Source: Phycisphaerae bacterium (GTDB lineage Bacteria > Planctomycetota > Phycisphaerae > Sedimentisphaerales > SM23-30). Taken from it: a stretch of DNA of 64,000 bases. The stretch's first letter is position 1. Each line of letters opens with the position of its first letter. A program made the translations under genes and the position numbers. The notes below the pieces were generated by a model that was given only the letters and a program-made list of their open reading frames with translations, was not told the DNA's origin and searched no databases. The stretch is from the NCBI GenBank assembly GCA_016342495.1, contig JAEIOG010000008.1, forward strand, positions 1 through 64,000. Reading direction: 5' to 3'. This document shows, piece by piece, positions 11,446-62,140 of the stretch.

Positions 11446-12022
11446 AAACAACTTCCACCATATTCATATAACACACATGTAGAGACAAGGCATGCCTTGT
11501 CTTTGACCAACCTTAAGGTGGCAAGGGTCCGCCAATAAGCGACCCCTTGGCCTGTATGCCGCCGTCAATGATGTTGTTAATCTTTCTGGATGGCTAATAA
11601 AATCTGCGCAATCCGCATGTGAGCAAGTTTATTTAGCGGCAAACCTAAAGTTATATTCGATATACACTTAACAAATGATTCATGCTAAAATTAAGTCTTC
11701 CGGGCTTGTAGTCACCAAATAACCATAAAAACCCAGCCCAACCAGTGATAATCAAAAACCAATTGCTTCAAAACAGGCTCTGCCAGCTTAAAAACCCACA
11801 AAACCATTTAAGTAATCATTAGCTCTTGCCCAATCAAATCTGCTCGATCCGTTAAAATTCGTGTCCTATTCTTATATTTTCCCCGCCACTAAAAAATCTC
11901 ACTCACATCCGCATTCTATATAAGTTATTTCACTAATTTTATACCAAATAATGCCCGATAAGAAATAATAACTATGTATCCCCGATATTTTTATCTCAGC
12001 AAATAAATGAAAGCAATTTATC

Positions 12023-20600: not shown

Positions 20601-23600
20601 TTTTTAGATGATAATGGTGATCTTTATGATTTTCCATATCCGGGGCTAGAGCCAATAGATTGGTGGCCAGCGTTTCATGATTCATATTATTATCATCGCA
20701 AGACATTGGATACCAGTGAAATGGGTATGGGTAAACTGGGGATTGGCGATCATACTTTGACCTTTATTCCAGCATTGATAATGGAAAGGACTGAAGATGA
20801 GCCAACCAAAGTAGATGGGCTAGTAGATTTTCTGGCAAGCGTTGGCGCAGTTACAATCACTGAATATCTTGAAGGTCGAGATGCAGATCCGGATGTCGAT
20901 GGTGATGCGGACGTAGCCGCACATGAACAGCGTGCATCTATCGCATTTGATAATATCGCAGTATATCAGCGTGTAGTTAAAACTGATATAGATAATAGTA
21001 ATGGTGCTCCAGATGAGTCGTTCTTTGATGAAGCCACAGACTTTGATAATGTTGATCCGCTAGTTGTTACTGACTGGGAAGATGATGGTGGCGACGGTGT
21101 GGCAGTTTATGATGCAGCTGAAGGCAATGATGATAATGGTTCAGTAAAGATAAGCCTGACAGATGGAGATATAAATGAGAGTCTTGTTCATACAATAAGT
21201 AAAACTATAACCGTTCCAGATGGTCATAATTATGTTGAAGTCGAGATGGCAGTTCGGGTGCTGATGACTGGCTTGGGTACAAGAGATGTAGTTCAGGTGG
21301 CAGTTGCCGAAGATGTTTATTTACAAGGCTTAGTAGGCGCTGCAGTGCAACCAGGGACTTTGGTTGACGGCAATTATGAATATCTGGAATTTAGTGGTAT
21401 AGATGCCGGGACAAATATTGATACTGATTGGCTGGAAGTAAAACTGAACAGGGTGTTTGAACTAGCACCAGGTGATCATAAGATGGACATTCTGGTAAGC
21501 CTGATGGATGTTGATTTTGTAGATGATGATGGGACTGTGGATGTATGGGTGGATGATATTAAGTTCAATTTCTATCCAGGTGTTACAACTTATGAGGCAA
21601 TGCCATATGGTAGCGATGCAAATCTAAATAATCATGTAGGTGGAAGCACTAACCTCACAACCGGCAGACCGGATTATGGTAAGAATCGTCGGGAATGTTA
21701 CCGTATTCATGTAGAACATGATGTGGCACAGCCTGCAGCGATACAATCGCTTAAGATAGCAGAAGTAGTCCAGGGCGGTAAAGGGCCAATGGCAGTAGGT
21801 TTCCGTTATAGATTAGATAGTGACAATGGTATGGCCGATGGTCTAAGTGGTATCAAGGTTAGAATCGGTGACAGAGCATATAATGTTGCTGGCGAAGATG
21901 ATTTTCTGACATTGCCAGATTGGTGGGGAGGCACAGGTCTATTCTGGAGCAATAGCGAAATTACATCTCCGCCATTCCCATTGGCATATGCATATTTTGT
22001 AATAAATCCTGAGGTAGTGGATGCCGGGACATACGATGTTTCTATTGAATTGACATTGGATGGCGGCGGTTTCGCTGACTTGTGGATTGATGATATTTTT
22101 GTCGCAAGTACCAAGAAGGGATCACCAGAGAAGATATTGGCGACATTGTCGGCGGTAACAGAAACCGGTACAGGGCAAACCAGAAGGTTTGCGATAGGTG
22201 GAACCTATAGAGCTGATGATTTCTGGTGTCATGATGATGGTTATAGAACAAGTCTTGACCAGGAAAATCCTCAAGATGATGAATTCCATCAGACAGACGG
22301 AAGACCTGATGAGAACAATGACGGTATTGCTGGTGGTGATACGACATCCGATCCTTATCCGGATGGATATTTGCGATCTCTGAGTCCTTATGTCGGTGAT
22401 GAACATAGATCAGTATGTATTTATGAGCTGATAGATAATGAATGGCAATTGTATGGTGATCGCATAGTCGAGACCATTGATGTTGATTTTCTGGGCATAA
22501 GAGTAGCGGGCAGTTATTTCCCGATGCCAAGGCCAGAGCTTCAAGCGATAGCGGGAATAACAATTGATAAATCTCAATGGTTATGGACAGCAACCCAGCA
22601 TTATACATCGGTATGGTCGCCAGATCCATTAAATGGAAATCCATTCCGTTATGCGGTTCATCCCTATCAGTTGACACCTCCGGCTCTTACAGAATTGAAT
22701 CTGGAAATATTTGGCTGGGAGCCAGTAGGTGAGATTGATCAGCTTGGCTGGGTGCCACATTGGGTAAATAAAGGATTTGAGCCTGCCGGACATAATGTAG
22801 GTGCTAATACCCGTTATCAATTTATTGATATGGCGACAACCCATGAGAATAAATTTGTATTGGGCTGGACCGAATATGATGACTGGACAGGATTTACTGA
22901 TGTTAAATTTAACTATATGCCCGATATTGCTGATAATCTAGACAATACTGATTTTGGACGTTTGTATAGCGGCAATGAAGAATTGCAAGATGCAAGATGG
23001 GATCCAACGCTGTTATCAGATATAGAGATCAAGCCGGGTGGATCGCCAATAGTATCATTCTGGATGTCCGAGATGTTGTTGCATGGAATACGCGAATTTG
23101 TTGAGTATTCAGATATGCCTTTCATGCAAGTCGAAGATGCATCCGGCAATGCGACGAACAATGTTCTTGAGCTGGGTGATAGTGTCAATGAGATTACTTA
23201 TGCAACCTTTGTGATATCAAATAAATATCCGACACAGGTTCCGCCATTGGATGATACTGAACTGGGTCAATTAGTAATATATGGCATAGAGTTTGGCGGA
23301 TTTGGCCAACTGGATGGAAGTCAGTTCGATATAATTGGCTCGCCAACATTCCCGATACGGCTAGATGGCGGAGAACGTCATACATTTACGGTTCGATTTG
23401 ATTCTAATGGAGTGCCAGCGGGTCAGTATGATGGAGCATTGGTTATTCACAGTAATTCTGTTGTGCATCCAACACATCCGTTTGGTCAGTTTTATGAATT
23501 GAATATTAGTGCGATGGTATTGAACCGCGGTATTGTTGATATGTCGGTAAATAGTCAATATGTTGAGTTTGAAGAAAAGCATGTGATAGGCAATATACCG

Positions 23601-34949: not shown

Positions 34950-35300
34950 TAATAAATGCTGGTATTGTAATTGACCAGTGTTATCGCTTAGGCATCCGTC
35001 GGTATGCAGAGACGTTGCATGCAAAGTCTCTGCAGTTGTGTCCAGCACAATAGACATCCGACAGCGCGGGCATGGCCCACCCTGCAAAACTGGTAACTGG
35101 TAATTAGTTATCGCTAATGGGATAAGAGACAAGCAGGATGCTTGTCCTACAGATGGGTCCCTCGCCAGCTACATCCAGACGGTCCAAGGCGGCAACGACG
35201 CCGGTACATCCACCAACCAATGATGCTTATGTAAGTTATGTCCAGCTTCAAGCTGGTAGGGTAGAGACGTTGCATGCAACGTCTCTACTACAGTATTGTG
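34950..35300. repeat. Copy A of a composite palindrome-rich repeat element, in the same orientation as copy C at 57590-58065 and inverted relative to copy B at 55305-55830
   Basis: Shared blocks with copy C are 'gctggtatt..ttgac', 'gacaagcaggatgcttg', 'ggcggcaacg.cgccgg...ccaacca.tgat.cttatgtaag' and 'CCAGCTTCAAGCTGG'. The hairpin 'tagagacgttgcatgcaacgtctcta' is shared with copy B. Confidence 0.7.
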
Positions 35301-35461
35301 TTCAGGGAAATAAACACCCTGCAACATGGCATAGGCCATAATCAGCGTGGGATACTTGGTTTAGGGCCAGCTTCTGGCAGAGCCGACTCAGGGCAATCGC
35401 ATGAAATTTTCATCCCTGTTTGTGGGTTAAAATCGATGCTAAATCAAAAAAGTTGACCTTG

Positions 35462-35543
35462 TCATCCCCGCGCAGGCGGGGATCCAGGAGATGCAAGCCA
35501 TGATTTTAGCTCGAAAACTGGATTCCCGCCTGCGTGGGAATGA
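35462..35543. promoter_or_regulatory. Pair of GC-rich hairpins in mutually inverted orientation, located between repeat copy A and the LRR gene
   Basis: 'CCCCGCGCAGGCGGGG' and 'TTCCCGCCTGCGTGGGAA' are separated by about 40 nt. Confidence 0.4.
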
Positions 35544-35645
35544 CACAATGAAATTTCATGCGTTAGCCCTGGAGCCGACTTGCAAGCCCTTGACATAGTC
35601 CTAATTAACCAGTACAATAACCCTATCGGACGTTAAAACCATAAA

Positions 35646-36326
35646 TTGAAAGGACAAAAACCAATGAAAAAAATCTTAGGGATTATCTTAATATCCATCA
35701 TAGCTTTGTTTGTACTAGATCATATTTTAGTCTATTATTTTGTGTATGACGCCACAGGTGGTTCCCTATCGAATACCGATCCCGGCCAACAAGCCGCTTA
35801 TGACAAGGCCCTAACCTTAATCGAGAAGGCCAAAGCCGACAATGACATCTCGCTGAGCCTTAGTCATTCAGGTTTGACCCAAGTACCGCCAGAGATAGGT
35901 GAGCTTACTTCTATGGAATGGCTGGACCTTAGCAATAATGCTCTAACTGCTTTGCCACCGGAGATAGGTGAGCTTGATTCGCTGAAATACCTGTATCTAT
36001 ATGATAATGCCATAACCAGCTTCCCGACAGATATCAGTGAGCTTACTTCCCTGGTAATGCTTGTTCTGCATGAGAATGAACTTACCAGCCTGCCAGAAGA
36101 AATGGCCAACCTTACTTCACTCAACCAGCTGTACCTCAATGACAATAAGCTGAAAGTTTTGCCCCAGTGGATTACCCAGCTGGATATGGAAATAGTCTGG
36201 GAAGATAAATCTTATAGAGGTAAAGGCATCAATGTCTATGGCAACCCTTTAGAAGAACCACCAATCGAAGTCGTCAAGCAAGGCAAAGCCGCTATTAAAG
36301 CCTGGTTCGATGAGAAGAATAAGTAA
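35646..36326 (+). CDS. Leucine-rich-repeat protein, single module: an N-terminal TM/signal, 'AAYDKAL' helix, about six LRRs (LxxLxLxxNxLtxLPxEIgxLtsL) and a conserved C-terminal cap 'WITQLDMEIVWE..GINVYGNPLEEPPIEVVKQGKAAIKAWF'
   Basis: LRR consensus repeats 'LEWLDLSNNALTALPPEIGELDSLKYLYLYDNAITSFPTDISELTSLVMLVLHENELTSLPEEMANLTSLNQLYLNDNKLKVLP'. Confidence 0.8.
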   Translation: MKGQKPMKKILGIILISIIALFVLDHILVYYFVYDATGGSLSNTDPGQQAAYDKALTLIEKAKADNDISLSLSHSGLTQVPPEIGELTSMEWLDLSNNALTALPPEIGELDSLKYLYLYDNAITSFPTDISELTSLVMLVLHENELTSLPEEMANLTSLNQLYLNDNKLKVLPQWITQLDMEIVWEDKSYRGKGINVYGNPLEEPPIEVVKQGKAAIKAWFDEKNK

Positions 36327-49429: not shown

Positions 49430-50386
49430 ATGGCCAAAGACATAAATAGTAAATCACCCAGAAATCAGACCATATTTCTTGATGAACAAGATTTACATAT
49501 CTATAAAAATGGTATTACCGAAGTTGTTGGCCCAGTTGAACTGGCCGACATAATTGATAAGACTATCTGTCAGGACAGTTTTAAGATACTGGATTATATG
49601 CCCAGAGATTCTGTTGACCTGCTTATTGCTGACCCACCTTATAATCTGACCATGAAGTTTAATGAAGCCAGCTTCAAGGCTTGCGATATGGGGCAATATC
49701 AAAATTGGCTTGAAAGTTGGATTCGTAAACTGGTTCGCATTATCAAATCTGATGGTAGTTTGTATTTTTGCGGTGATTGGCGGAGTTCGCCGGCTTTGTT
49801 TTTTGTTTTACAGAAATATTTTAATGTGCGCAATCGCATAACCTGGGAACGAGAAAAAGGACGTGGTTCAAAAACTAATTGGAAAAATTCCCATGAAGAT
49901 ATCTGGTTTTGCACGATGGGTGATAAGTATACATTTAATGTCGATGCGGTGAAGCTTAAACGCAAAGTAATAGCACCTTATAAAGATAATGGTCAGCCGA
50001 AAGACTGGGCGCATGACAAAGATGGTAAGTTTAGACTTACCCATCCATCGAATATGTGGACAGATATATCGGTGCCGTTCTGGTCGATGCCGGAAAATAC
50101 CGAGCATCCCACCCAAAAGCCTGAAAAACTGATAGCTAAACTGATATTGGCCAGCAGCAATGCGAATGATATTGTTTTTGATCCGTTTTTAGGCTCTGGC
50201 ACAACAAGTGTTGTTGCCAGGAAGCTCAAAAGGCATTATATTGGTGTCGATATTGATGAGAAGTTTTGCTTATTAGCAGAAAAACGTTTGGCAATGGCCG
50301 AACCAAGTCCTGATATTCAGGGGTATTCTGGTGGTGTGTTTTGGGAACGAAATAGTGGTAATAACATTAAACGTGCAGCTGATTGA
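49430..50386 (+). CDS. Beta-class N6-adenine/N4-cytosine DNA methyltransferase (CcrM/M.HinfI-like) with no visible cognate endonuclease
   Basis: 'LLIADPPYN', 'HPTQKPEKL' and 'VFDPFLGSGTT' in beta-class order. It ends 36 bp before the radical SAM gene. Confidence 0.8.
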   Translation: MAKDINSKSPRNQTIFLDEQDLHIYKNGITEVVGPVELADIIDKTICQDSFKILDYMPRDSVDLLIADPPYNLTMKFNEASFKACDMGQYQNWLESWIRKLVRIIKSDGSLYFCGDWRSSPALFFVLQKYFNVRNRITWEREKGRGSKTNWKNSHEDIWFCTMGDKYTFNVDAVKLKRKVIAPYKDNGQPKDWAHDKDGKFRLTHPSNMWTDISVPFWSMPENTEHPTQKPEKLIAKLILASSNANDIVFDPFLGSGTTSVVARKLKRHYIGVDIDEKFCLLAEKRLAMAEPSPDIQGYSGGVFWERNSGNNIKRAAD

Positions 50387-50422
50387 CAGGTGTAAGCTTT
50401 TGGAATTAGGACAGGAAAACAG

Positions 50423-51538
50423 ATGAGACCATTTTCGTTATTGATAAAACCGGCTGGTCCGGATTGTAATATAGATTGTAAGTATTGCTTTTATTCACGT
50501 AAAAGCGAGATGTTTGGGCCGGGTCGTCATCGTATGACTGATGATGTGCTGGAGAAGCTGGTCAAGGATTTTCTGGAATTGGGTTTTCCGGTAAACAGCT
50601 TTGCCTTTCAGGGGGGTGAGCCTTCGCTGATGGGTTTGGAGTTTTATCAGAAGCTGGTAGATTTACAGAAAAAGTATGGCTCTGATGGCCAGGTAATAAC
50701 CAATGCCCTGCAGACCAATGGTACATTATTGGATCAGCAGTGGTGCGAGTTTTTACATGAATATAAATTTTTGGTTGGCATTAGCTTAGATGGCCCGCAA
50801 AAGTATCATGATCATTTTCGCATCGACCATGCTGGCAAACCAACCTGGCAACGGGTAATGGATGGCATAAGGAATTGCAAAAAATATAATGTTGAATATA
50901 ATATTCTGGTTTTGCTCAATAGTTTCAATGTTGACTATCCTGATGAATTATTTGATTTCTTTATCGAGAATAAATTCAAGTTTTTACAGTTTATTCAATG
51001 TGTAGAACTGGACCAGGGAACTGGAGATATTTCCACTTTCAGTATTACGCCCAGGCAATATGGTGATTTTCTCTGCCGGGTATTTGACCGCTGGCTGAAA
51101 TATGGGCCAACAAAAATGAGTATTCGTACATTCGACAGTATTTTGAGCTATCTTCTGGAAGGTCGCCATACCGAATGTACCCTGGGGCCGCGCTGTAATG
51201 ATTATGTTGTAGTTGAACATGATGGCGGGGTTTATTGCTGCGACTTCTTTGTTGATAATGAATGGAAACTCGGCAACTTAATGGATGAAAATATTGGTGA
51301 TCTTGCCAATTCCCCATTGAAAAGTAAGTTTTCCAAACGCAAAAGAGATGTACCTAATAAATGTAGCTTATGTCGCTATTTGCATATATGTCGCGGGGGC
51401 TGTCCCAAGGATAGAGTTGTGACTCAAGGCAATAAGCCTATTAGCTACTTCTGTGAATCCTACCAGCAACTATTTGGGCATACTTTACCAAAACTGGAGG
51501 AATTTGCAGCGATGCTGCGGAGTCAAAATGGACAATAA
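50423..51538 (+). CDS. Anaerobic sulfatase-maturating enzyme (radical SAM/SPASM, AslB/anSME family)
   Basis: 'LLIKPAGPDCNIDCKYCFY' is the CxxxCxxC motif. 'FAFQGGEPSLMGLEFYQKL', 'LQTNGTLLD' and the C-terminal SPASM 'CSLCRYLHICRGGCPKDR' are collinear with characterised anSMEs. Confidence 0.8.
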   Translation: MRPFSLLIKPAGPDCNIDCKYCFYSRKSEMFGPGRHRMTDDVLEKLVKDFLELGFPVNSFAFQGGEPSLMGLEFYQKLVDLQKKYGSDGQVITNALQTNGTLLDQQWCEFLHEYKFLVGISLDGPQKYHDHFRIDHAGKPTWQRVMDGIRNCKKYNVEYNILVLLNSFNVDYPDELFDFFIENKFKFLQFIQCVELDQGTGDISTFSITPRQYGDFLCRVFDRWLKYGPTKMSIRTFDSILSYLLEGRHTECTLGPRCNDYVVVEHDGGVYCCDFFVDNEWKLGNLMDENIGDLANSPLKSKFSKRKRDVPNKCSLCRYLHICRGGCPKDRVVTQGNKPISYFCESYQQLFGHTLPKLEEFAAMLRSQNGQ

Positions 51539-53353: not shown

Positions 53354-55207
53354 TCATTTCTCCGCGGCTAAATAAAGCTTGACCCGGCAGTCAATAAGAT
53401 TATCTTTGGCCTTCACTGATTTATCAGTGATATTAAACTGCCAGCCGGCTTTGCCATCAGTCAGCATAACCACGGTATTTAACGTGATAAGGGCTACCAG
53501 CGGCTTATCGGTTTCGGCCAGCACCTTCATAATGGTCGGGCGCGGGTCAGCAGCACCGGTAAGACCCAGGAATTCGGCTGCCCGAACCTTCACCAGCTCA
53601 TTATCATCCTTTTCAGCGATGGCTTTGGCCTTATCATAGAAGTCCGCTGCCTGATTGCCAAAACAGCTGCACACGATTAAGGCCCAGTAACGCTTGAATG
53701 GATCCTTATCTGCCAGTGCCCGGTCAATACCAGCTTTGGCCTTGTCATAATCTTCCAATGCCAGGTCCGCCACATCGATTAATTCGGCGATACGTCCCTT
53801 ATTTTTTATTCCAAAGGCGATCGGATCGCCAAAGGCATGCTCACAGAGATAACTTTCCGGGAAGAAACTCAAATCCGGCAATGCCTTAGCCTGATTTTGC
53901 AGTTTGCCGCGTAGCTGAGCTAACACATCTCGATAAGCCGGATCCTTAGCGAGGTTCTTAACTTCATAGGGATCCTTAACCACATCGAATAAAGTCTCCG
54001 GATCACGGCCCAAAAAGAACTGGCTTTGCACTTCATTGAGTTTACCAGCTTTATAAAGCTCTCTCCATTCCTGATAAGCGATCATTTTATAGCGATAATT
54101 ATTCTGCAGGGCATCGAAATTAAAACCCTGATAGTTGCGATGATACTTAAATTGACCCTTCCGGACAGTTCGCACCATATCATACTTTTCATCAAAGCGG
54201 TCAGCGATCCCATAAGCTTCATCCTGCCGAGCAACAGCTTTGATATCGACCTTAGGTCCCAGGAAAGGCTTGCCATCAGCTAACTCAGGAATCTTAACAC
54301 CGGCCAGATTCAATGCCGTTGGGGCCATATCGATAAAATTGACAAAGCCATCGAATCTTGTACCTGCCTTTAAGTCGATCAGATGCCTGAAATTAGCCGG
54401 GATCCGCATGACCATCGGCACATGCAGCCCGGTTTCATAGAGATAACCCTTGCTGCGTGGGGTAACTCCGCCATGATCGCCAAAATAAAAGATGAAAGTA
54501 TCTTCCAGAACGCCCTGAGCCTCTAATTTAGCGACCATTTCACCAATTTGCTCATCGAGAATCTCATGATGCTTGTAATATTGATTATAAGTCTTGCGGA
54601 AAACCTCGGTGTCAGGGTAATGAGGGGGAAGTTTAATATCTTTATTGTCGATACCGGTCTTGCCGGCCTTTTGCAGCGGTCCTTCATGGGTAATAGCGAA
54701 CTGATGTTGATGGAAAAACGGCTGGCCGGGCTGCCGGCCTTGCCAGGTTTTATTGGAGTCAAAGACATCTTTGCCCCAGTTAAAGTTAAAATCGGTCTTA
54801 CGAAAATAAGAAGTATAATAACCGGCCTGCTTCAGATAAGCCGGAAAGGGCTTTAGGCCATCGGGCAGCTCAACTGGCTGATATTTACGGTGATAATGGA
54901 TCGCCAGCTTATTAGGATAGCAGCCAGTGATCAAGGTAGACCTTGCCGCCGAGCAGACCGGGCAATTGGAAAAGGCATGGTCAAAGATAACACCCTTGCC
55001 GGCGAGCTTATTGACATTGGGCATATCCACACCATCTCTATTATAGATATTGCAGAAGTGTTGGGAATTATCTTCGGATATCAGCCAGACTATATTAGGC
55101 CTTTTACCCTTGATCGGGCTCTGGCTGAAGCAATTATCAGAGCCCAGTAGAACGGCACCCAGGCTCAAACCGGCCATTTTAATGAATTGACGACGACTAT
55201 TTGGCAT
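53354..55207 (-). CDS. Cys-type sulfatase (arylsulfatase family) with a Tat-like signal and a C-terminal HEAT/ARM-like extension
   Basis: 'MPNSRRQFIKMAGLSLGAVLL' and 'PNIVWLISEDNS...CPVCSAARSTLITG' give a C-x-A-x-R FGly motif variant. 617 aa. Confidence 0.75.
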   Translation of the reverse strand: MPNSRRQFIKMAGLSLGAVLLGSDNCFSQSPIKGKRPNIVWLISEDNSQHFCNIYNRDGVDMPNVNKLAGKGVIFDHAFSNCPVCSAARSTLITGCYPNKLAIHYHRKYQPVELPDGLKPFPAYLKQAGYYTSYFRKTDFNFNWGKDVFDSNKTWQGRQPGQPFFHQHQFAITHEGPLQKAGKTGIDNKDIKLPPHYPDTEVFRKTYNQYYKHHEILDEQIGEMVAKLEAQGVLEDTFIFYFGDHGGVTPRSKGYLYETGLHVPMVMRIPANFRHLIDLKAGTRFDGFVNFIDMAPTALNLAGVKIPELADGKPFLGPKVDIKAVARQDEAYGIADRFDEKYDMVRTVRKGQFKYHRNYQGFNFDALQNNYRYKMIAYQEWRELYKAGKLNEVQSQFFLGRDPETLFDVVKDPYEVKNLAKDPAYRDVLAQLRGKLQNQAKALPDLSFFPESYLCEHAFGDPIAFGIKNKGRIAELIDVADLALEDYDKAKAGIDRALADKDPFKRYWALIVCSCFGNQAADFYDKAKAIAEKDDNELVKVRAAEFLGLTGAADPRPTIMKVLAETDKPLVALITLNTVVMLTDGKAGWQFNITDKSVKAKDNLIDCRVKLYLAAEK

Positions 55208-55304
55208 ATTTTACTCCTTTAACGGTGAAAAAGTGGCTTCGATATAGAGGATATTTCTCCAAAGACCCCAATTTGCCCAAAAATCCCCTCAAAATTAATA
55301 ATAA

Positions 55305-55830
55305 TCCAGCTTAAAGCTGGACATAACTTACATAAGGATCATTGGTCGCCAGCTTGAAGCTGGACACAGCTTACATAAGGATCATGGTCGGTGGGTACTC
55401 CCGCTTCCGTTGGTCGCTGCATCAGCCAGAACGTCATAAGCGGGGGACAAATGTTGATGCGGCCGTGACACATTTTGTAGAGAGTTTGCATGCAACGTCT
55501 CCACCCCCGGCCAGATGCCAGTCGCCAGAAACACCGGTCAAATACAATACCGGCATTATGAATCATTCAATATGTAGGACAAGCATCTTGCTTGTCATTT
55601 ATCCCCAGGCACCAGCACAATGAAACCAATATCAAGCAGGATGCTCGACCTACTTTGCCCAATGCAGGTTGAACCTGCTTACAACTTACATAAGGATCAT
55701 GGTCGGTGGGAGCTCCCGCTTCCGTTGGTCGCTGCTGCCGGCAGAACGTCACAGGCGGGGGACAAATGTTGATGCGGCCGTGACATATTTGTAGAGACAA
55801 GGCACCCCTTGTCTCAGCTTCCGGCTAAAT
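55305..55830. repeat. Copy B of the composite palindrome-rich repeat element (about 1.4 tandem units), inverted relative to copies A and C and directly 5' of the minus-strand sulfatase gene
   Basis: A 120-bp block 'cttacataaggatcatggtcggtggg..ctcccgcttccgttggtcgctgc...gcgggggacaaatgttgatgcggccgtgaca.attttgtagaga' occurs at 55371 and 55685. The palindromes are CCAGCTTAAAGCTGG and CCAGCTTGAAGCTGG. The reverse complement aligns with 57700-58060. Confidence 0.75.
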
Positions 55831-56043
55831 GTCAGGCAACTTAAGATAAAAGCAGGGGCGCAGAAGGTATAAGTTAATCCATTTAAAATAGAAATCTCCC
55901 ACCAACTGACAAATTCGGCTTTGCTAAGGCACAGATTTGGCGGATTTAATACTTGAAAACATCAAAGTGAGGAGTTAGTATTGATAAACCAGTTAAGAAT
56001 AAGTCAACCGTTGAGCAGTTTGGCTTAACAAAGGAACAAAGCT

Positions 56044-56670
56044 ATGGGAATAACGGAATCAAACATTTACCTAATATTCACTTTCATACTAGTTATCCTG
56101 ACAGCTAACATCAAATCCTTCAAGGATTGTTCGCTAGAGCCTGTCCGTTGGTATGATCTGACTGTATCGTCATGGATAATAGTGGCTATTATGTGCCTGC
56201 CACATAATATGCCCGGACATTTCACTTTCGTTGTCTGCTTTATGGTGGTGATGTATTTGTTATCCCTGCTTTTATGGCGATTTATGTTGCTATTTACCAA
56301 TGATCGTTCGCTTCAACGTCGCTGTTTGCCTTTACTTCGCATAATCAGCAGTGTTTTCATTTTTATCATAATGGTTTTATGGTCACAGCTGGCTTTTGCC
56401 GATGCCAAAGACTTCGCCGATGCCACTGCCCGAGAGCTTCAGGCTCAGATAGAAACTCAAGGCAGCTGTCCGGAGACTATCGATGGCTGGCAATCGGATT
56501 TAGGAAACCACCTTATCGCCTGGCATGGCAGCTATGGAATCAAATACCCTGTAAGATGCTTCTTGGATGACAGCGAAGACAGCTTCACAATCTTTATCAG
56601 TCAACATTTTGGCGAGAAATATATAATAACCGGCGGACTAAACAACAAATTATACTATGCCACCGAGTGA
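56044..56670 (+). CDS. Hypothetical membrane protein, paralog 1 (208 aa), with N-terminal TM helices and a conserved C-terminal 'AFADAKDFADATARELQAQIETQGSCPETIDGWQSD' domain
   Basis: It is 55-60% identical to the adjacent ORF, and the upstream 40 bp including the RBS region is also duplicated. Confidence 0.6.
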   Translation: MGITESNIYLIFTFILVILTANIKSFKDCSLEPVRWYDLTVSSWIIVAIMCLPHNMPGHFTFVVCFMVVMYLLSLLLWRFMLLFTNDRSLQRRCLPLLRIISSVFIFIIMVLWSQLAFADAKDFADATARELQAQIETQGSCPETIDGWQSDLGNHLIAWHGSYGIKYPVRCFLDDSEDSFTIFISQHFGEKYIITGGLNNKLYYATE

Positions 56671-56757: not shown

Positions 56758-57384
56758 ATGGATATAATGGAAGTATCATTTTACATATTAATATTTTTTG
56801 TGTTAGTTATTCTGGTATTTTACATAAGATCAATCAAAAATCACCAGCAGGAGCCCATCGGCTTGCTTCATCTGACAATACCAACTTTGCTAATACTCGC
56901 TTTCATTGGGCTTCCGCATAATATGCCTGGACTTTGGATTTTCGCAGGTTACTTCTTGGCTGTAATGTGGGTGCTTTCCCTGCTGCTGATGCGTTGGGTG
57001 CGGTCTTTAACTGATGCTCGCCCACTTCTGCGGCGCCATATTTCCTCTGTTCATGCGTTTATGAGCATTTTAATCTTTATCATAATGCTCTTATGGGCGC
57101 AGCTGGCTTATGCCGATGCCAAAGACTTCGCCGATGCCACCGCCCGGAAGATACAAGCTCAGATAGAAACCGAAGGCAGCTGCCCGGAGACTATCGATGG
57201 CTGGCAATCGGATTCAGGGGGATTCCTTAGCACCTGGCATGGCCGCTATGGAATAAAATTCCCTGTAAACTACACCTTAAACGAAAGCAAAGACTGCTTC
57301 ACAATCAGCATCGTACCCCATATTGCCCAACGCTATACAATAACCGGCGGCCCGAACCGCAAATTACATTATGCCACCGAGTAA
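56758..57384 (+). CDS. Hypothetical membrane protein, paralog 2 (208 aa)
   Basis: Tandem duplicate of 56044-56670. The motif 'TTATCCGCAGA' follows both genes. Confidence 0.6.
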   Translation: MDIMEVSFYILIFFVLVILVFYIRSIKNHQQEPIGLLHLTIPTLLILAFIGLPHNMPGLWIFAGYFLAVMWVLSLLLMRWVRSLTDARPLLRRHISSVHAFMSILIFIIMLLWAQLAYADAKDFADATARKIQAQIETEGSCPETIDGWQSDSGGFLSTWHGRYGIKFPVNYTLNESKDCFTISIVPHIAQRYTITGGPNRKLHYATE

Positions 57385-57589: not shown

Positions 57590-58065
57590 CCCCCGCATCC
57601 GACGTTCAGCCGGATGCAGGCGGCAACGCCGCCGGTGGCACTTGCCAACCAGTGATTCTTATGTAAGGAGGGTGCAGGCTCAGCCTGTTGTGTGCAGGTT
57701 CAAGCTGGAGGGTGCAGGCTCAGCCTGCATTGGGCCAAGTAGGTCGAGCATCCTGCTTGACATTGGTTTTATTGTGCTGTTGCCTGGGGAAAAATGACAA
57801 GCAGGATGCTTGCGCTACTTATTGAATGAATCATAACGCTGGTATTCTATTTGACATTTGTCTCTGGTGCTCGACATCTGGCCGGATGCCCAGACAAGGG
57901 GTGCCTTGTCTCTACCAAATATGTCACGGGCGAATTAATATTTTCCCTCGGCCTGCGACGTTCTGGCTGATGCAGGCGGCAACGCCGCCGATAGCACTTG
58001 CCAACCAGTGATTCTTATGTAAGGAGGGTGCAGGCTCAGCCTGTTGTGTGCAGGCTCAGCCTGGT
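57590..58065. repeat. Copy C of the composite repeat element (about 1.35 tandem units), upstream of the triple-module LRR gene
   Basis: 'ccggatgcaggcggcaacgccgccg.t.gcacttgccaaccagtgattcttatgtaaggagggtgcaggctcagcctg' occurs at 57610 and 57960. The CAGGCTCAGCCTG palindrome occurs three times, along with the hairpin 'agacaaggggtgccttgtct'. Confidence 0.75.
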
Positions 58066-58072
58066 TGGGTTA

Positions 58073-58198
58073 AAAGTGAACTTGATTCTGGCAAAAGTGA
58101 ATTCAATTCTGTCAAAAGTGAGTTCAATTATGTTAGAAGTGAATTCAATTCTGTCGAAAGTGAACTTGATTCTGTCAGAAGTGAACTTGATTATTACT
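58073..58198. repeat. Six tandem copies of a 21-bp unit (consensus AAAGTGAAYTYRATTCTGTCR), with no spacers
   Basis: The units begin at 58073, 58094, 58115, 58136, 58157 and 58178, with 2-5 mismatches each. Confidence 0.8.
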
Positions 58199-58487: not shown

Positions 58488-60557
58488 ATGACCAAATATG
58501 TAAGCCAAAGCATAATAGCGATTATCGCAGCAACAATCATGCTCGCCTTAACCTCCTGTGACAGTAAAAGCGAACCCTTCAATATCAGCTCATCGGAAGA
58601 TGTTGCTCAAAAAAATGATACAATGACACTTAGGCAACAGGCGGCTTATGATAAAGCCCTGCTTATGATTAAGCAGGCAAAAGTCAATAAAGCTAACATG
58701 CTCAACATTTTTTCTATAGACCTTACAAAAGTGCCGAACGAGATATCCCAGCTCTATGAACTAAAGGAACTATATATTTCCTGTAATCCATTATTAAGTT
58801 TACCACTTGAGATCGGCAATTTAACAGCATTGAGATCTTGTTTTATTACTTATAACGATCTGATAGCCTTACCTCCTGAGATTGGCCAGCTTAGTAACCT
58901 CGAAGAATTAAGTTTTACCGGTAATAGCTTAAATTATCTTCCTGCTGAGATCGGTGAGTTATCCAATCTGGAATTTTTATATCTTGATGATAATAATCTA
59001 ACCAGCCTACCCGAGGAAATCAGGCAGTTAACTAACCTTAGAATTCTGGATCTTAGTAATAATAAACTTACAATCCTGCCTCGCTGGATTACTGAAATGG
59101 ATATGAATATTCGCTGGGGGACTGGCTTTGTAGTTAAAGGCATCAACCTCTACGGCAACCCTCTTCAAGAGCCGCCGATAGATATTGTGATGCAGGGCAA
59201 GGAAGCGATTAAGCAGTATTTTGCGGATAAGGAAGCAACCGCAAAAGCTGGTGATGATGTTAAAGAAGCTAAGATGATCGCCGAAGAGCGTGCGGCCTAT
59301 GATAAAGCTCTCAGCGAGATTAAAAAGGCTAAAGATGAAAATGCCATTTATCTGTGGCTGCATGAAATACCTCTTAGCAAGTTACCGCCGGAGATTGGTG
59401 AACTTATCTGGCTGGAGAAATTGTTTATTTTTAAAACTGAGCTATCCAGTTTACCGCCAGAAATCGGGCAATTGACTGCATTGAAGCAGCTTGCTGTTCA
59501 TGACAATCAGCTGACTGGTTTACCGAAGGAGATTGGCCAGCTTAATCGCCTTGAAATCTTCTCTGTGGAAGATAATCGTCTGACTTGTCTGCCGGCTGAG
59601 ATCGGAAAGTTGACTGCTCTGCAAGAGTTGAGGCTTTGCAATAATAAACTAAACAGCATTCCCGATCAAATCAGCCAGCTGGCTAACCTTAGATGTCTTG
59701 ATCTTAGGGGTAATGAGCTTAAGAGTTTACCTGGCTGGATTACGGAAATGGATATGAAGATTCTCTGGGGAGAACATGGGAATTTTAAAGGCATAAACCT
59801 CTACGGCAACCCTCTTCAAGAGCCACCGATTGAGATTGTCAAACAGGGCAGGGCCGCTATAAAGCAATATTTTGGAATTGATGATGCAGGTTTTCCAGCA
59901 AGCATTGTCCAGAGAAAAGCTAAGATAGCAGCTAAACAGCAAATGGCCTATGATAAAGCTCTCAAGAAGATTAAAAAGGCCAAGGCTGAAAATGTCACAA
60001 CACTATATCTATCTGGAATGGACCTGATAAAGTTGCCGGCCGAGATTGGTGAGCTCACCGAGCTGGAAAAGCTGGTTATTTTTAAAACTGAGTTATCCAG
60101 TTTACCGCCTCAGATCGGTAAGTTGACTGCATTGAAAAACCTTGATGTCAGTTTCAACCAGCTGACTTGTTTACCGCCAGAGATTGGTCAGCTCAGCAAC
60201 CTTGAAACCTTGTTTGTTGAAGATAGTAATCTGACTTGTCTGCCGGCTGAGATCGAAAAGTTGTCTAACCTGCAAGAATTGATGCTTAGTAATAATAAAC
60301 TAACCAGTCTTCCCGAGGAAATTACCCGGTTGACTAACCTTAAACGCGTACATCTGTTAAATAATAAACTCAAAACCCTGCCGGTCTGGATTACCGAAAT
60401 GGATATGGCGATCATCTGGGATAAATCCGATGCATCTGAAGCCATTTTCCTCTACGGCAACCCGCTGGAAGAACCGCCGATTGAGATTGTCAAACAGGGC
60501 AATGCCGCTATTAGGCGGTATTTTGAGGATAAGGGCGAGGGAAAGCCTCGGGAGTAA
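58488..60557 (+). CDS. Leucine-rich-repeat protein built of three tandem copies of the module found in the 226-aa LRR protein. Each copy has the AAYDKAL helix, about six LRRs and a WITEMDM...GINLYGNPLQEPPIEIVKQG..AIKQYF cap.
   Basis: The module boundaries lie near residues 45, 260 and 470. The LRR consensus 'L..L.L..N.L..LP.EIGQL..L' occurs more than 18 times. The N-terminus 'MTKYVSQSIIAIIAATIMLALTSCD' is lipoprotein-like. Confidence 0.8.
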   Translation: MTKYVSQSIIAIIAATIMLALTSCDSKSEPFNISSSEDVAQKNDTMTLRQQAAYDKALLMIKQAKVNKANMLNIFSIDLTKVPNEISQLYELKELYISCNPLLSLPLEIGNLTALRSCFITYNDLIALPPEIGQLSNLEELSFTGNSLNYLPAEIGELSNLEFLYLDDNNLTSLPEEIRQLTNLRILDLSNNKLTILPRWITEMDMNIRWGTGFVVKGINLYGNPLQEPPIDIVMQGKEAIKQYFADKEATAKAGDDVKEAKMIAEERAAYDKALSEIKKAKDENAIYLWLHEIPLSKLPPEIGELIWLEKLFIFKTELSSLPPEIGQLTALKQLAVHDNQLTGLPKEIGQLNRLEIFSVEDNRLTCLPAEIGKLTALQELRLCNNKLNSIPDQISQLANLRCLDLRGNELKSLPGWITEMDMKILWGEHGNFKGINLYGNPLQEPPIEIVKQGRAAIKQYFGIDDAGFPASIVQRKAKIAAKQQMAYDKALKKIKKAKAENVTTLYLSGMDLIKLPAEIGELTELEKLVIFKTELSSLPPQIGKLTALKNLDVSFNQLTCLPPEIGQLSNLETLFVEDSNLTCLPAEIEKLSNLQELMLSNNKLTSLPEEITRLTNLKRVHLLNNKLKTLPVWITEMDMAIIWDKSDASEAIFLYGNPLEEPPIEIVKQGNAAIRRYFEDKGEGKPRE

Positions 60558-60688: not shown

Positions 60689-62140
60689 ATGTGTAAGGAA
60701 TTGTTTGTGAAGATAGCTCTTATTAACCCATCCTGGCTGTTTCGTAATAACGCTGATGTTGTCCTGTCACAGAATCTTGGATTGGGGTATTTAGCCAGTT
60801 ATCTTCGTCAGCATGGCCATCAAATACAGATAATCGACTCATTAGCCGAAGGCTTTAAACAGCGGGGAAAAATGCCCAATGGCTCTTTGCGGGTGGGTTT
60901 GCTGGATTGTCAGGTAGTCGATCTTCTAAGTAACAGGCTCGATTTGATTGGGATTACAATTCCATTTTCACATATGTATGAGGTAGCAGAAAGTTTATGC
61001 TGTGCAATTAAAGAGGGGTATCAAGATATCCCAGTCGTAATGGGAGGGGTGCACCCATCAACCTGTCCGCAAGATTATATGACAAGCAAAGCTGATTATT
61101 GGCTGGTAGGCGAAGGCGAAATAGCCATGCGTCAGTTGGCTGATGGCCTGGAACCTGACCAAATTGAGGGGCTGTTGTCTGCTTCAAAGCCTCAGTTGCT
61201 TCCAGGTGAGAAGACTCAACAGATCATGGATTTAGATTTGATTCCAGAGCCGGCCAGAGATTTGTTGCCCATGGATTTATATAAAAATCTTTCGCCGCGG
61301 CGGATATCACACAAGCCAACAGCTAGCATTTTTACCAGTAGAGGCTGTCCCTGGGATTGTCAATTTTGTTCAGTACATCCGATCAATGGATATAAATGGC
61401 GAATGAGTTCGGCAGCTAAGGTTTTGCAGGAAATAAGACATCTAGTCAAAGACTATGGCATAAGACAATTAGAATTTGAAGATGATAACCTGACAGTCAA
61501 TTACGACAGGGCTATGGAAATATTTGATGGAATATACCAACTCCGAAAGCAATTGGGCATAGAGTTGACCTGGGGGACACCTAATGGCGTTCGGGCAGAT
61601 AATGGCATAGACCGGGCGATGTTGGAGATGATGAAGAAAAGTGGTTGTGTCAGGCTTACCTTTGCCCTGGAGCATGGCGACCAGGAAATTAGAAAGATAA
61701 TGGACAAACATCTCAATATGGATAAATTCGAGCAGGCATTGCGTGATGCGATAGATATGGGAATTTATACTGAAGTGTTTACAATGGTTGGCTATCCGGG
61801 CGAGACAGCAGAGCGATTCGAAAATGGCCGTGCATATTATCGAAAATTAGCTGATTGGGGTGTGAATTTAATACATTTCTTCTATCCTCAGCCTTATCCC
61901 GGGACGAAATTATATAGTTTTTGCAAGGAAAAGGGCTATCTTGTATCTGACAATTATTCGCTTCTGCCTGAAATTAAGATTGAAACGGAAGATTTTGATA
62001 CCAGGGAAGTCTTACGAAGGAGAGAAGTGCTGTTGTGTGAGCATGATCCCGCCTATAAAATCCGCCAGAAAGCTAAGGCAATACTTCCAGATAGATTGAT
62101 TTCATTTATTAATCGACTTTTGCCCCGTAAACAGATGTGA
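60689..62140 (+). CDS. B12-binding-domain radical SAM protein (class B rSAM)
   Basis: 'RGCPWDCQFCSV' is the CxxxCxxC motif. The N-terminus 'IALINPSW' and the 'MGGVHPS' region are cobalamin-binding-like. An alternative GTG start lies at 60707. Confidence 0.65.
   Translation: MCKELFVKIALINPSWLFRNNADVVLSQNLGLGYLASYLRQHGHQIQIIDSLAEGFKQRGKMPNGSLRVGLLDCQVVDLLSNRLDLIGITIPFSHMYEVAESLCCAIKEGYQDIPVVMGGVHPSTCPQDYMTSKADYWLVGEGEIAMRQLADGLEPDQIEGLLSASKPQLLPGEKTQQIMDLDLIPEPARDLLPMDLYKNLSPRRISHKPTASIFTSRGCPWDCQFCSVHPINGYKWRMSSAAKVLQEIRHLVKDYGIRQLEFEDDNLTVNYDRAMEIFDGIYQLRKQLGIELTWGTPNGVRADNGIDRAMLEMMKKSGCVRLTFALEHGDQEIRKIMDKHLNMDKFEQALRDAIDMGIYTEVFTMVGYPGETAERFENGRAYYRKLADWGVNLIHFFYPQPYPGTKLYSFCKEKGYLVSDNYSLLPEIKIETEDFDTREVLRRREVLLCEHDPAYKIRQKAKAILPDRLISFINRLLPRKQM

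What the first reader, a model, noticed from the sequence alone, without database searches (positions are those of the whole stretch)
58488..60557. Eukaryote-like LRR protein formed by internal triplication of a complete 215-aa module that also exists as a stand-alone gene 22 kb away
The 689-aa protein is three diverged copies of helix + 6 LRRs + cap (WITEMDM.I.W...GINLYGNPL.EPPIE.V.QG.AI..YF). The 226-aa protein at 35646-36326 is a single such module. Both genes are preceded by copies of the same repeat element. Modular expansion of LRR cassettes behind a shared mobile 5' element suggests a recombining family of surface or secreted binding proteins. This is analogous in principle to Leptospira, Bacteroides or Listeria LRR adhesins, or effector-like LRR proteins.
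Basis: seen in the sequence. Interest (0 to 1): 0.55.

Follow-up and report, generated by a model that had tools for sequence, protein, structure and literature searches.

The report
Lipoprotein with three Roco-type LRR domains
A Phycisphaerae bacterium encodes a probable membrane-anchored lipoprotein made of three tandem copies of a complete leucine-rich-repeat domain of the type normally found at the front of Roco GTPases; it belongs to a small paralog family in the same genome with one, two or three such domains, which is a neat but fairly ordinary case of domain duplication in a binding protein.

Summary
ORF 58488-60557 (689 aa) holds three in-register copies of a 217-aa module: an N-cap helix, six 23-residue LRRs and a C-cap. 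The copies are 53-62% identical (E 1e-66 to 1e-82). The gene at 35664-36326 is one such module, lacking one LRR.

The module is not generically eukaryote-like. Its cap matches residues 392-441 of the solved Chlorobium tepidum Roco protein (E 5e-17), the end of the LRR domain leading into the LRR-Roc linker. In 93 of 148 database proteins carrying this cap, a P-loop follows it directly. Here there is no Roc-COR. Instead there is a lipoprotein signal (LTSC) or a membrane anchor.

At least seven paralogs with 1, 1, 1, 1 plus a stump, 2 and 3 modules lie in the same metagenome-assembled genome, and no close relatives were found elsewhere. Variation concentrates on the concave LRR face, and the caps are nearly invariant.

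The modules are old (dS 0.7 to saturated; longest identical run 29 nt), so active cassette recombination is unsupported. The upstream repeat is a mosaic of hairpins that also sits upstream of a sulfatase gene, so it is not LRR-specific.

Most likely function: an exported, multivalent binding protein with unknown ligands. Interest is modest.

The parts
58488..60557 (+). 689-aa ORF: lipoprotein signal, tether, three tandem LRR modules and a short tail
   Evidence: (100% identical to NCBI MBI9016129.1, Phycisphaerae bacterium MAG)
58488..58559 (+). Signal peptide with lipobox L21-T22-S23-C24, followed by Asp at +2
   Evidence: Read from the sequence. The same MTK...LTSC-DSK N-terminus is in paralog P0002, LTSC in P0128 and LLSC in P0127. 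AF2 predicts helix 2-22.
58560..58628 (+). Low-complexity tether, aa 25-47
   Evidence: pLDDT below 50 for residues 24-44
58629..59231 (+). Module 1 (aa 48-248): N-cap helix, six 23-aa LRRs and C-cap. It has no counterpart in the two-module paralog P0002.
59280..59882 (+). Module 2 (aa 265-465)
   Evidence: (AF2 pLDDT 87.5)
59931..60533 (+). Module 3 (aa 482-682)
59076..59231 (+). C-cap of module 1 (aa 197-248): LPxWITEMDMxIxW hairpin, then GNPLxEPPIxIVxQGxxAIxxYF
   Evidence: homologous to CtRoco residues 392-441
59727..59882 (+). C-cap of module 2 (aa 414-465)
60378..60533 (+). C-cap of module 3 (aa 631-682)
59232..59279 (+). Inter-module linker 1 (aa 249-264)
   Evidence: pLDDT below 50 at residues 253-262
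59883..59930 (+). Inter-module linker 2 (aa 466-481), conserved with the linker of paralog P0002
   Evidence: pLDDT below 50 at residues 466-476
35664..36326 (+). Stand-alone single-module paralog: 220 aa from the ATG, or 226 aa from the TTG at 35646. N-terminal membrane anchor, N-cap helix, five LRRs and C-cap.
   Evidence: NCBI MBI9016113.1
57590..58065 (+). Mosaic palindromic-hairpin repeat element: a 356-nt unit present about 1.3 times, upstream of the 689-aa gene
34950..35300 (+). Partial, rearranged copy of the same mosaic element upstream of the 226-aa gene
55300..55850 (-). Inverted copies of the same element, upstream of the sulfatase gene 53354-55207(-). This shows the element is not LRR-specific.
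58073..58194 (+). Six tandem 21-nt units (core AAAGTGAAYTYRATTCT), 294 nt upstream of the start codon; role unknown
   Evidence: 6 matches against 0.22 expected

Best explanation
The 689-aa gene encodes an exported, lipid-anchored protein made of three rigid LRR horseshoes strung on flexible linkers.

Each horseshoe is a complete Roco-type LRR domain. It has an N-terminal capping helix (AAYDKALxxIKKAK), six 23-residue LxxLxLxxNxLxxLPxEIGxLxx repeats, an irregular last repeat with a W...W beta-hairpin, and a terminal helix (EPPIEIVKQGxxAIxxYF). In Roco GTPases this terminal stretch leads into the linker to the Roc domain. Here Roc-COR is absent, and a lipoprotein signal takes the protein across the inner membrane.

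The gene arose by in-register duplication of whole domains (651-nt period). It belongs to a family of at least seven paralogs in this one Phycisphaerae genome. These share the signal peptide and C-terminal tail but carry different numbers of domains. The 226-aa gene is a more distant one-domain member with its own membrane anchor.

The scaffold and caps are conserved, while the concave beta-sheet face differs between domains. The inferred mechanism is therefore multivalent or multi-specific protein binding in the periplasm or at the cell surface, with each domain offering a different recognition surface.

Shown: the architecture, the homology to the Roco cap, the paralog family, the age of the duplications and the pattern of variation. 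Inferred: export and lipidation, localisation, and binding function. The ligands are unknown.
For: - Self-similarity and register.
- The cap profile matches CtRoco PDB 5il7, 6hlu and 8r4b at residues 392-441, E 5e-17 over profile positions 1-50. RocCOR constructs 4wnr and 3dpu begin with GNPLExPPxEIVKQG. In CtRoco the LRR-Roc linker, with the alpha0 helix that just precedes Roc, is the hinge on which the LRR domain swings; K443 lies in that linker (PMC11052575).
- Of 148 best cap-profile hits, 93 have a P-loop within 70 aa after the cap. Most whole-protein hits are LRR-Roc-COR proteins.
- The window protein has no Roc or COR domain.
- The lipobox is conserved in four paralogs.
- All close paralogs carry NCBI accessions MBI9016113 to MBI9018803, and the two named 'hypothetical protein' carry locus tags JEZ07_, i.e. 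one MAG.
- P0002 aligns to the signal peptide, then to modules 2 and 3.
- AF2: single module pLDDT 87.5. Full length 82.4 with pTM 0.39, and only the tether and the two linkers fall below 50, giving beads on a string.
- Concave x positions have 2.19 bits of entropy against 1.20 for convex positions (p 2e-10). dN is 0.48-1.48 at concave positions against 0.07-0.13 at scaffold positions.
- Overall dN/dS is about 0.3, so the copies are under purifying selection and are not decaying.
Against: - No signal-peptide or lipoprotein predictor could be run, so export rests on a sequence pattern and its conservation.
- Paralog P0126 has lost the lipobox cysteine.
- No ligand, conserved operon partner or gene neighbourhood points to a function. 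Flanking genes are unrelated: a sulfatase, two unknown 208-aa membrane proteins and a B12 radical-SAM enzyme.
- Concave-face dN/dS is 0.35-0.92, not above 1. Diversification may therefore be relaxed constraint rather than selection for new specificities.
- The family is known from a single MAG, so conservation of architecture across species cannot be checked.
Confidence: 0.6

Rival explanations
1. One reading: an actively recombining cassette family. LRR modules are shuffled, expanded and contracted by ongoing homologous recombination, driven or seeded by a shared mobile element at the 5' end. The result would be surface variation.
For: - Module number varies among paralogs (1, 2, 3, and one with a stump of a second module) while both protein ends are shared.
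- The N-terminus of P0126 looks mosaic between P0002 and P0001.
- M2 and M3 reach 82-85% nt identity in their central part.
- Mosaic repeats lie upstream of both LRR genes in the window.
Against: - dS is 0.7-1.3 between modules within the gene and saturated against the stand-alone gene. The longest identical run is 29 nt, which is poor substrate for RecA-type exchange.
- The repeat is also upstream of a sulfatase gene and brackets unrelated genes.
- Only about 50 nt align between the two LRR loci.
- No transposase, integrase or reverse-transcriptase domain turned up among the window ORFs that were scanned.
- The DNA of the other paralogs could not be retrieved.
Confidence: 0.1
2. Eukaryote-directed effector or adhesin. 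The proteins are released or displayed to bind host or prey proteins of a eukaryote (alga, sponge or protist), like Leptospira LRR proteins, internalins or Xanthomonas/Salmonella LRR effectors.
For: - Fold and repeat type are closest in the PDB to the Leptospira LIC12234, LIC10831, LIC12759 and LIC11098 proteins and to eukaryotic SHOC2 and LRRC8.
- Leptospira LIC_10831 binds cadherins (PMC11674859).
- Neochlamydia LRR proteins are among the hits.
- There are weak NCBIfam similarities to XopAC and XopL.
Against: - All effector and internalin models score far below their cut-offs (for example XopAC 248 against 450, internalin 37 against 1050).
- There is no NEL, Fic, E3 or cell-wall-anchor domain.
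- The Leptospira proteins lack the Roco-type cap: profile positions beyond 157 are unmatched.
- A lipobox is present rather than a T3SS-type N-terminus.
- Nothing in the window indicates a host-associated lifestyle or a secretion system.
Confidence: 0.12
3. Cytoplasmic leftovers or trans-acting regulators of Roco GTPases. The modules would be Roc-less fragments that still dock onto Roc-COR proteins through the conserved cap, and the predicted signal peptides would be misleading.
For: - The cap is the most conserved part of the module (mean column identity 75%).
- In CtRoco the linker that follows it contacts Roc and COR.
- 63% of proteins with this cap are Roco-like.
Against: - Four paralogs conserve a hydrophobic N-terminus plus lipobox, and a fifth has a membrane anchor.
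- dN/dS of about 0.3 and intact ORFs argue against decay.
- No Roco gene turned up among the window ORFs that were scanned.
Confidence: 0.05

Closest known systems
LRR domain of bacterial Roco proteins (Chlorobium tepidum Roco, PDB 5il7 / 6hlu / 8r4b)
   Same: - The same 23-residue LPxEIGxL repeats.
- The same C-terminal cap, including the W...W hairpin and NPLExPPxEIVKQGxxAxxxYF: E 5e-17, full cap coverage at CtRoco residues 392-441.
- A similar N-terminal capping helix sits at the extreme N-terminus of some Roco hits, such as P0092, P0097 and P0088.
   Different: - No Roc GTPase or COR domains.
- A lipoprotein signal instead of a cytoplasmic protein.
- Six repeats per domain, fewer than CtRoco (repeats up to at least 11 are named in PMC11052575).
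- Three domains in tandem.
Leptospira interrogans LRR protein family (LIC12234, LIC10831, LIC11098, LIC12759; Miras et al. 2015, as cited in PMC11674859)
   Same: - A family of many LRR proteins (the study analyses 21) with variable repeat number. Some are predicted lipoproteins, and some are binding proteins.
- Best structural match: 4tzh, TM 0.72-0.76.
- Best PDB sequence matches over the repeats.
   Different: - In Leptospira, variation is in the number of repeats within one solenoid. Here it is in the number of complete capped domains.
- The Leptospira proteins do not match the Roco-type cap.
Slit-type tandem LRR domains of animals (own knowledge, not tested here)
   Same: Several complete LRR domains, each with its own N- and C-caps, are joined by short linkers in one extracellular protein. 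Different domains bind different partners.
   Different: Slit has cysteine-rich LRRNT and LRRCT caps, which are absent here (no such Pfam hits). It is eukaryotic, unrelated in sequence beyond the LRR motif, and not lipid-anchored.
Other multi-cap bacterial proteins found here (P0122 with 4 caps; P0129 with 3 caps plus a pilin domain; P0123 EAD9-TM with 2 caps; P0130 caspase with 2 caps; P0153 with 2 caps plus Roc-COR)
   Same: Tandem complete LRR domains with the same cap type. Whole-domain repetition of this module therefore recurs in several lineages: 12 of 148 top hits.
   Different: - Different N-terminal or C-terminal partner domains.
- None among the top 150 outside this MAG has a lipobox.
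- Their cap scores are much lower (20-70 bits against about 107 bits).

Membership tests
Leucine-rich repeat superfamily | Repeated LxxLxLxxNxL motifs that match Pfam LRR models above the gathering score | tested here: met
   LRR_14 168 bits (cut-off 40), LRR_4 128 bits (27), LRR_8 116 bits (27) for the 689-aa protein. LRR_8 103 bits for the 226-aa protein.
Roco-type LRR domain (a domain type, not the Roco protein family) | C-terminal cap homologous to the end of the LRR domain of a solved Roco protein | tested here: met
   Cap profile against the PDB: CtRoco 5il7, 8r4b and 6hlu at residues 392-441, E 5e-17 to 9e-17, profile positions 1-50 of 52. The cap occurs three times in the 689-aa protein at about 107 bits each.
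Roco protein family | Roc (Ras-like GTPase) domain followed by a COR domain | tested here: not met
   No Roc, Ras, COR-A or COR-B Pfam hit at E up to 0.01. No P-loop follows any cap. Each cap is followed by a linker and the next module, or by the C-terminus.
Bacterial lipoproteins (SPII substrates) | N-terminal positive n-region, hydrophobic h-region, and lipobox [LVI][ASTVI][GAS]C | tested here: met
   MTK-YVSQSIIAIIAATIMLA-LTSC24. The pattern is conserved in P0002 and P0128 (LTSC) and P0127 (LLSC). This is a pattern match only; no dedicated predictor was available.
Bacterial lipoproteins (SPII substrates) | Actual lipidation and cleavage by Lgt and LspA | not testable with these tools
   Needs globomycin sensitivity, lipid labelling or mass spectrometry.
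Leptospira LRR protein subfamily | 23-residue LPxEIGxL repeats and the same solenoid fold | tested here: met
   hmmsearch gives 4u09 E 8.6e-133 and 4u08 E 6.5e-120 over the repeats. Foldseek gives 4tzh E 1.4e-11, TM 0.72/0.76.
Leptospira LRR protein subfamily | Shared capping structures, i.e. common descent of the whole domain | tested here: not met
   The printed alignments of the two best Leptospira chains stop at profile position 157, and the table gives 152 or lower for the other two, so the cap (positions 158-201) is unmatched. The cap profile finds no Leptospira chain in the PDB.
T3SS LRR effectors (XopAC, XopAE, XopL, SlrP, SspH) and internalins | NCBIfam model score above the curated cut-off, plus effector or anchor domains | tested here: not met
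   XopAC 248 against 450, XopAE 219 against 600, XopL 186 against 500, SlrP 101 against 1113, InlH 37 against 1050. Only LRR domains are present.
Anti-phage defence system components | Match to a PADLOC model | tested here: not met
   No PADLOC hit for either LRR protein.
Cassette or mobile-element-driven variable gene family | A specific shared mobile element at the 5' end, and recombination-competent identity between cassettes | tested here: not met
   The element is also at 55300-55850, upstream of a sulfatase gene. Only 50 nt at 82% are shared between the LRR loci. The longest identical run between modules is 29 nt, and dS is 0.7 or more. A genome-wide test was not possible.

The most novel reading that the evidence does not exclude
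The near-invariant cap is kept in Roc-less, exported modules because it still works as a docking or signalling end, while the hypervariable concave faces act as recognition surfaces. In Roco proteins this stretch leads into the linker that couples the LRR domain to the GTPase. On this reading, Phycisphaerae would carry an extracytoplasmic receptor family of the form 'variable recognition face plus constant coupling helix'. It would be built by whole-domain duplication of a module borrowed from Roco sensors, and would report to an unknown common envelope partner.
Probability: 0.07. Interest if true: 0.6.

Novelty: new variant of a known kind. Interest (0 to 1): 0.3.

Why it matters
It shows that the complete LRR domain of bacterial Roco proteins, including the approach to the LRR-Roc linker, behaves as an independent evolutionary unit. 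The unit can lose Roc-COR, be exported behind a lipoprotein signal, and be multiplied in tandem.

For Roco/LRRK2 structural biology, this offers natural, small, stand-alone versions of the LRR domain with its cap (about 200 aa, predicted with high confidence).

For planctomycete biology, it flags a lineage-specific family of probable envelope binding proteins.

It does not open a new mechanism. Tandem capped LRR domains and LRR paralog families are already known.

Tried and rejected
- Exact-sequence look-ups of contigs for P0001, P0002, P0126, P0128 and the window ORFs all returned nothing. The DNA and context of the other paralogs could not be examined.
- The word-indexed search with the 52-aa cap profile returned only one fragment. 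The exhaustive representative search was needed.
- The genome-contig scan found only six distant relatives in other phyla. Neither this MAG nor close relatives appeared.
- The metagenome scan for the repeat core (CAACCANTGATNCTTATGTAAG) gave one hit with no further similarity to the window, i.e. chance.
- Rfam found nothing at gathering score anywhere in the window, so the hairpin element matches no curated RNA family.
- Promoter and terminator scans upstream of the gene were uninformative.
- TRF does not report the 651-nt period, because its longest period is 500 and the copies are too diverged.
- A narrow HMM of the N-cap helix found only two outside proteins. It is too family-specific to quantify how Roco-typical the N-cap is.
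- A test for positive selection on the concave face gave dN/dS 0.35-0.92 with saturated dS. Positive selection is not shown.
- Assembly artefact was rejected because the modules differ at 26-37% of nucleotides.
Full report
**Observation.** ORF 58488-60557 (+) encodes 689 aa, and ORF 35646-36326 (+) encodes 226 aa.

When the 689-aa protein is split near the proposed boundaries, the three parts align over 209-212 residues. Identities are 54%, 53% and 62%, with E 7e-70, 2e-66 and 3e-82. The register is exact: a 217-aa (651-nt) period with no indels, and modules start at aa 48, 265 and 482.

The 226-aa protein aligns to each module at 45-48% identity, E 3e-49 to 5e-57. It lacks exactly one 23-residue repeat. 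NCBI calls it from the ATG at 35664, giving 220 aa.

Pfam LRR models are far above threshold. The best hits outside the family are only 34-43% identical. The signal is therefore a real domain triplication, not generic LRR periodicity. At the DNA level the modules are 63-74% identical, which excludes an assembly artefact.

**Anatomy.** AlphaFold2 predicts one module with mean pLDDT 87.5. It has an N-terminal helix, six strands spaced 23 residues apart, a beta-hairpin at the WITEMDMxIxW segment, and two short terminal helices.

The full-length model (pLDDT 82.4, pTM 0.39) has three confident domains. Low confidence is confined to residues 24-44, 253-262 and 466-476, so the picture is beads on a string behind a disordered tether.

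The N-terminus, MTKYVSQSIIAIIAATIMLALTSC-DSK, has the n-region, h-region and lipobox of a lipoprotein signal. The 226-aa protein instead has a hydrophobic N-terminal anchor.

**What the module is.** A profile of the 52-aa cap matches the solved Chlorobium tepidum Roco protein (5il7, 6hlu, 8r4b) at residues 392-441. The E-value is 5e-17 over the whole cap: LPETITGFDMEILWNDFSSSGFITFFDNPLESPPPEIVKQGKEAVRQYFQ. RocCOR crystallisation constructs (4wnr, 3dpu) begin with the GNPLE.PP.EIVKQG segment.

In CtRoco the LRR-Roc linker, with the alpha0 helix that immediately precedes Roc, is the hinge on which the LRR domain swings. K443 lies in that linker (PMC11052575).

The exhaustive search of 1.84 billion representatives found 738 proteins with this cap, 125 of them at E up to 1e-10. 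Among the 148 best hits:
- 93 have a P-loop within 70 residues after the cap, i.e. Roco-like.
- 37 end with the cap.
- 12 have two or more caps.

Multi-cap examples include a 2409-aa protein with four caps, a protein with three caps plus a pilin domain, an EAD9-TM protein with two caps, a caspase fusion, and a Roco protein with two caps.

Whole-protein hits are likewise dominated by LRR-Roc-COR proteins of cyanobacteria and Chloroflexi. A similar N-cap helix sits at the very N-terminus of some of them.

The module is thus a complete Roco-type LRR domain. The window protein has no Roc or COR.

In the PDB, the repeats themselves are closest to the Leptospira LRR proteins and to SHOC2. Those do not share the cap.

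**The family.** The cap search recovered P0002, P0126, P0128, P0127 and P0124 in addition to the two window genes:
- P0002: 472 aa, same signal peptide and lipobox, two modules.
- P0128: 255 aa, lipobox, one module.
- P0126: 240 aa, one module, lipobox cysteine lost.
- P0127: 226 aa, lipobox, three LRRs, a cap, and the stump of a second module.
- P0124: a 125-aa fragment.

All carry NCBI accessions MBI9016113 to MBI9018803 from one 'Phycisphaerae bacterium' MAG, and P0124 and P0127 carry locus tags JEZ07_. P0126 and P0128 have consecutive accession numbers, so they are probably adjacent genes. These are therefore paralogs, not orthologs.

No close relative from any other organism was found.

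P0002 aligns to the signal peptide and then to modules 2 and 3, including the inter-module linker and the tail. Module 1 is therefore the extra unit.

**Age and selection.**
- Between modules of the 689-aa gene, dS is 0.7-1.3 and dN/dS is about 0.3.
- Against the stand-alone gene, dS is saturated.
- The longest identical DNA run is 29 nt.
- M2 and M3 are more alike in their centre, at 82-85%. This hints at old conversion but no recent exchange.
- Across eight modules, the concave-face x positions have 2.19 bits of entropy against 1.20 bits for convex positions (p 2e-10).
- dN is 0.48-1.48 at concave positions and 0.07-0.13 at scaffold positions, but dN/dS stays below 1.

**The upstream repeat.** The two upstream regions share a 50-nt stretch at 82% identity plus collinear palindromic hairpins.

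The same mosaic element occurs in inverted orientation at 55300-55850, upstream of a sulfatase gene. Together with the copy at 57714-58007, it brackets two unrelated 208-aa genes. It is therefore an intergenic hairpin repeat of this genome, not an LRR-specific 5' cassette.

It matches no Rfam family. Its core was not found in JGI metagenomes beyond one chance hit.

**Interpretation.** The best reading is an exported, lipid-anchored, multivalent binding protein built from three Roco-type LRR domains with different concave faces. It belongs to a lineage-specific paralog family that grew by whole-domain duplication. Export, localisation and binding are inferred, and the ligands are unknown.

The rivals are less well supported: active cassette recombination, a eukaryote-directed effector or adhesin, and a cytoplasmic Roco-related regulator. 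Effector and internalin models fall far below their cut-offs, and there are no PADLOC hits.

**Verdict.** This is a new architectural variant of a known domain type. Interest is modest.

Noticed in passing
window 1-34000 (switch near 12000-14000): GC skew of the + strand flips from about -0.15/-0.2 to +0.2/+0.3, regardless of gene strand. The cumulative minimum is near 13 kb. This could be a replication origin or a rearrangement or assembly joint. None of the ORFs scanned around it (5.9-17.1 kb) has a DnaA domain.
   Followed up: partly
window 56044-56670 and 56758-57384: Two tandem 208-aa paralog genes (81% nt identity over 350 nt). Each has a multi-pass hydrophobic N-half and a conserved C-half, with no Pfam, NCBIfam or PADLOC hit. 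They are bracketed by inverted ~294-nt copies of the mosaic hairpin element (55385-55678 vs 57714-58007, 78% complementary), a composite-element-like arrangement.
   Followed up: partly
window 58073-58194: Six tandem 21-nt units with core AAAGTGAAYTYRATTCT (GAA-N5-TTC), unique in the window (0.22 matches expected by chance). They lie 294 nt upstream of the 689-aa ORF. The two-helical-turn phasing suggests a binding-site array, but this was not tested.
   Followed up: partly
window 35460-35545: An 88-nt imperfect palindrome (GTCATCCCCGCGCAGGCGGGGATCC ... GGATTCCCGCCTGCGTGGGAATGAC) lies between the mosaic element and the 226-aa gene. It looks like a different small repeat or MITE-like hairpin.
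   Followed up: no
window 17637-26564: A giant 2975-aa ORF with HYDIN/ASH-type Ig-like and DUF1573 domains, probably a large surface protein.
   Followed up: no
window 49430-51538: An N6/N4 DNA methyltransferase is followed by a radical-SAM/SPASM protein with weak prokaryotic-viperin-like PADLOC hits. The B12-binding radical SAM gene at 60689-62140, 131 nt downstream of the LRR gene, hits a candidate defence model (PDC-M51A) weakly.
   Followed up: no
proteins P0129, P0123 and P0130 (not in the window): Other bacteria combine tandem Roco-type capped LRR modules with quite different partners. P0129 has a signal peptide, three modules and a C-terminal pilin domain. P0123 has EAD9, a TM segment and two modules. 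P0130 has a caspase domain and two modules.
   Followed up: partly
paralog P0126 (same MAG, other contig): Its N-terminus looks mosaic: aa 1-15 are identical to P0002 and aa 15-22 are identical to P0001. The lipobox cysteine is replaced (LTWN). This may be past recombination among paralog 5' ends, or a decaying copy.
   Followed up: no
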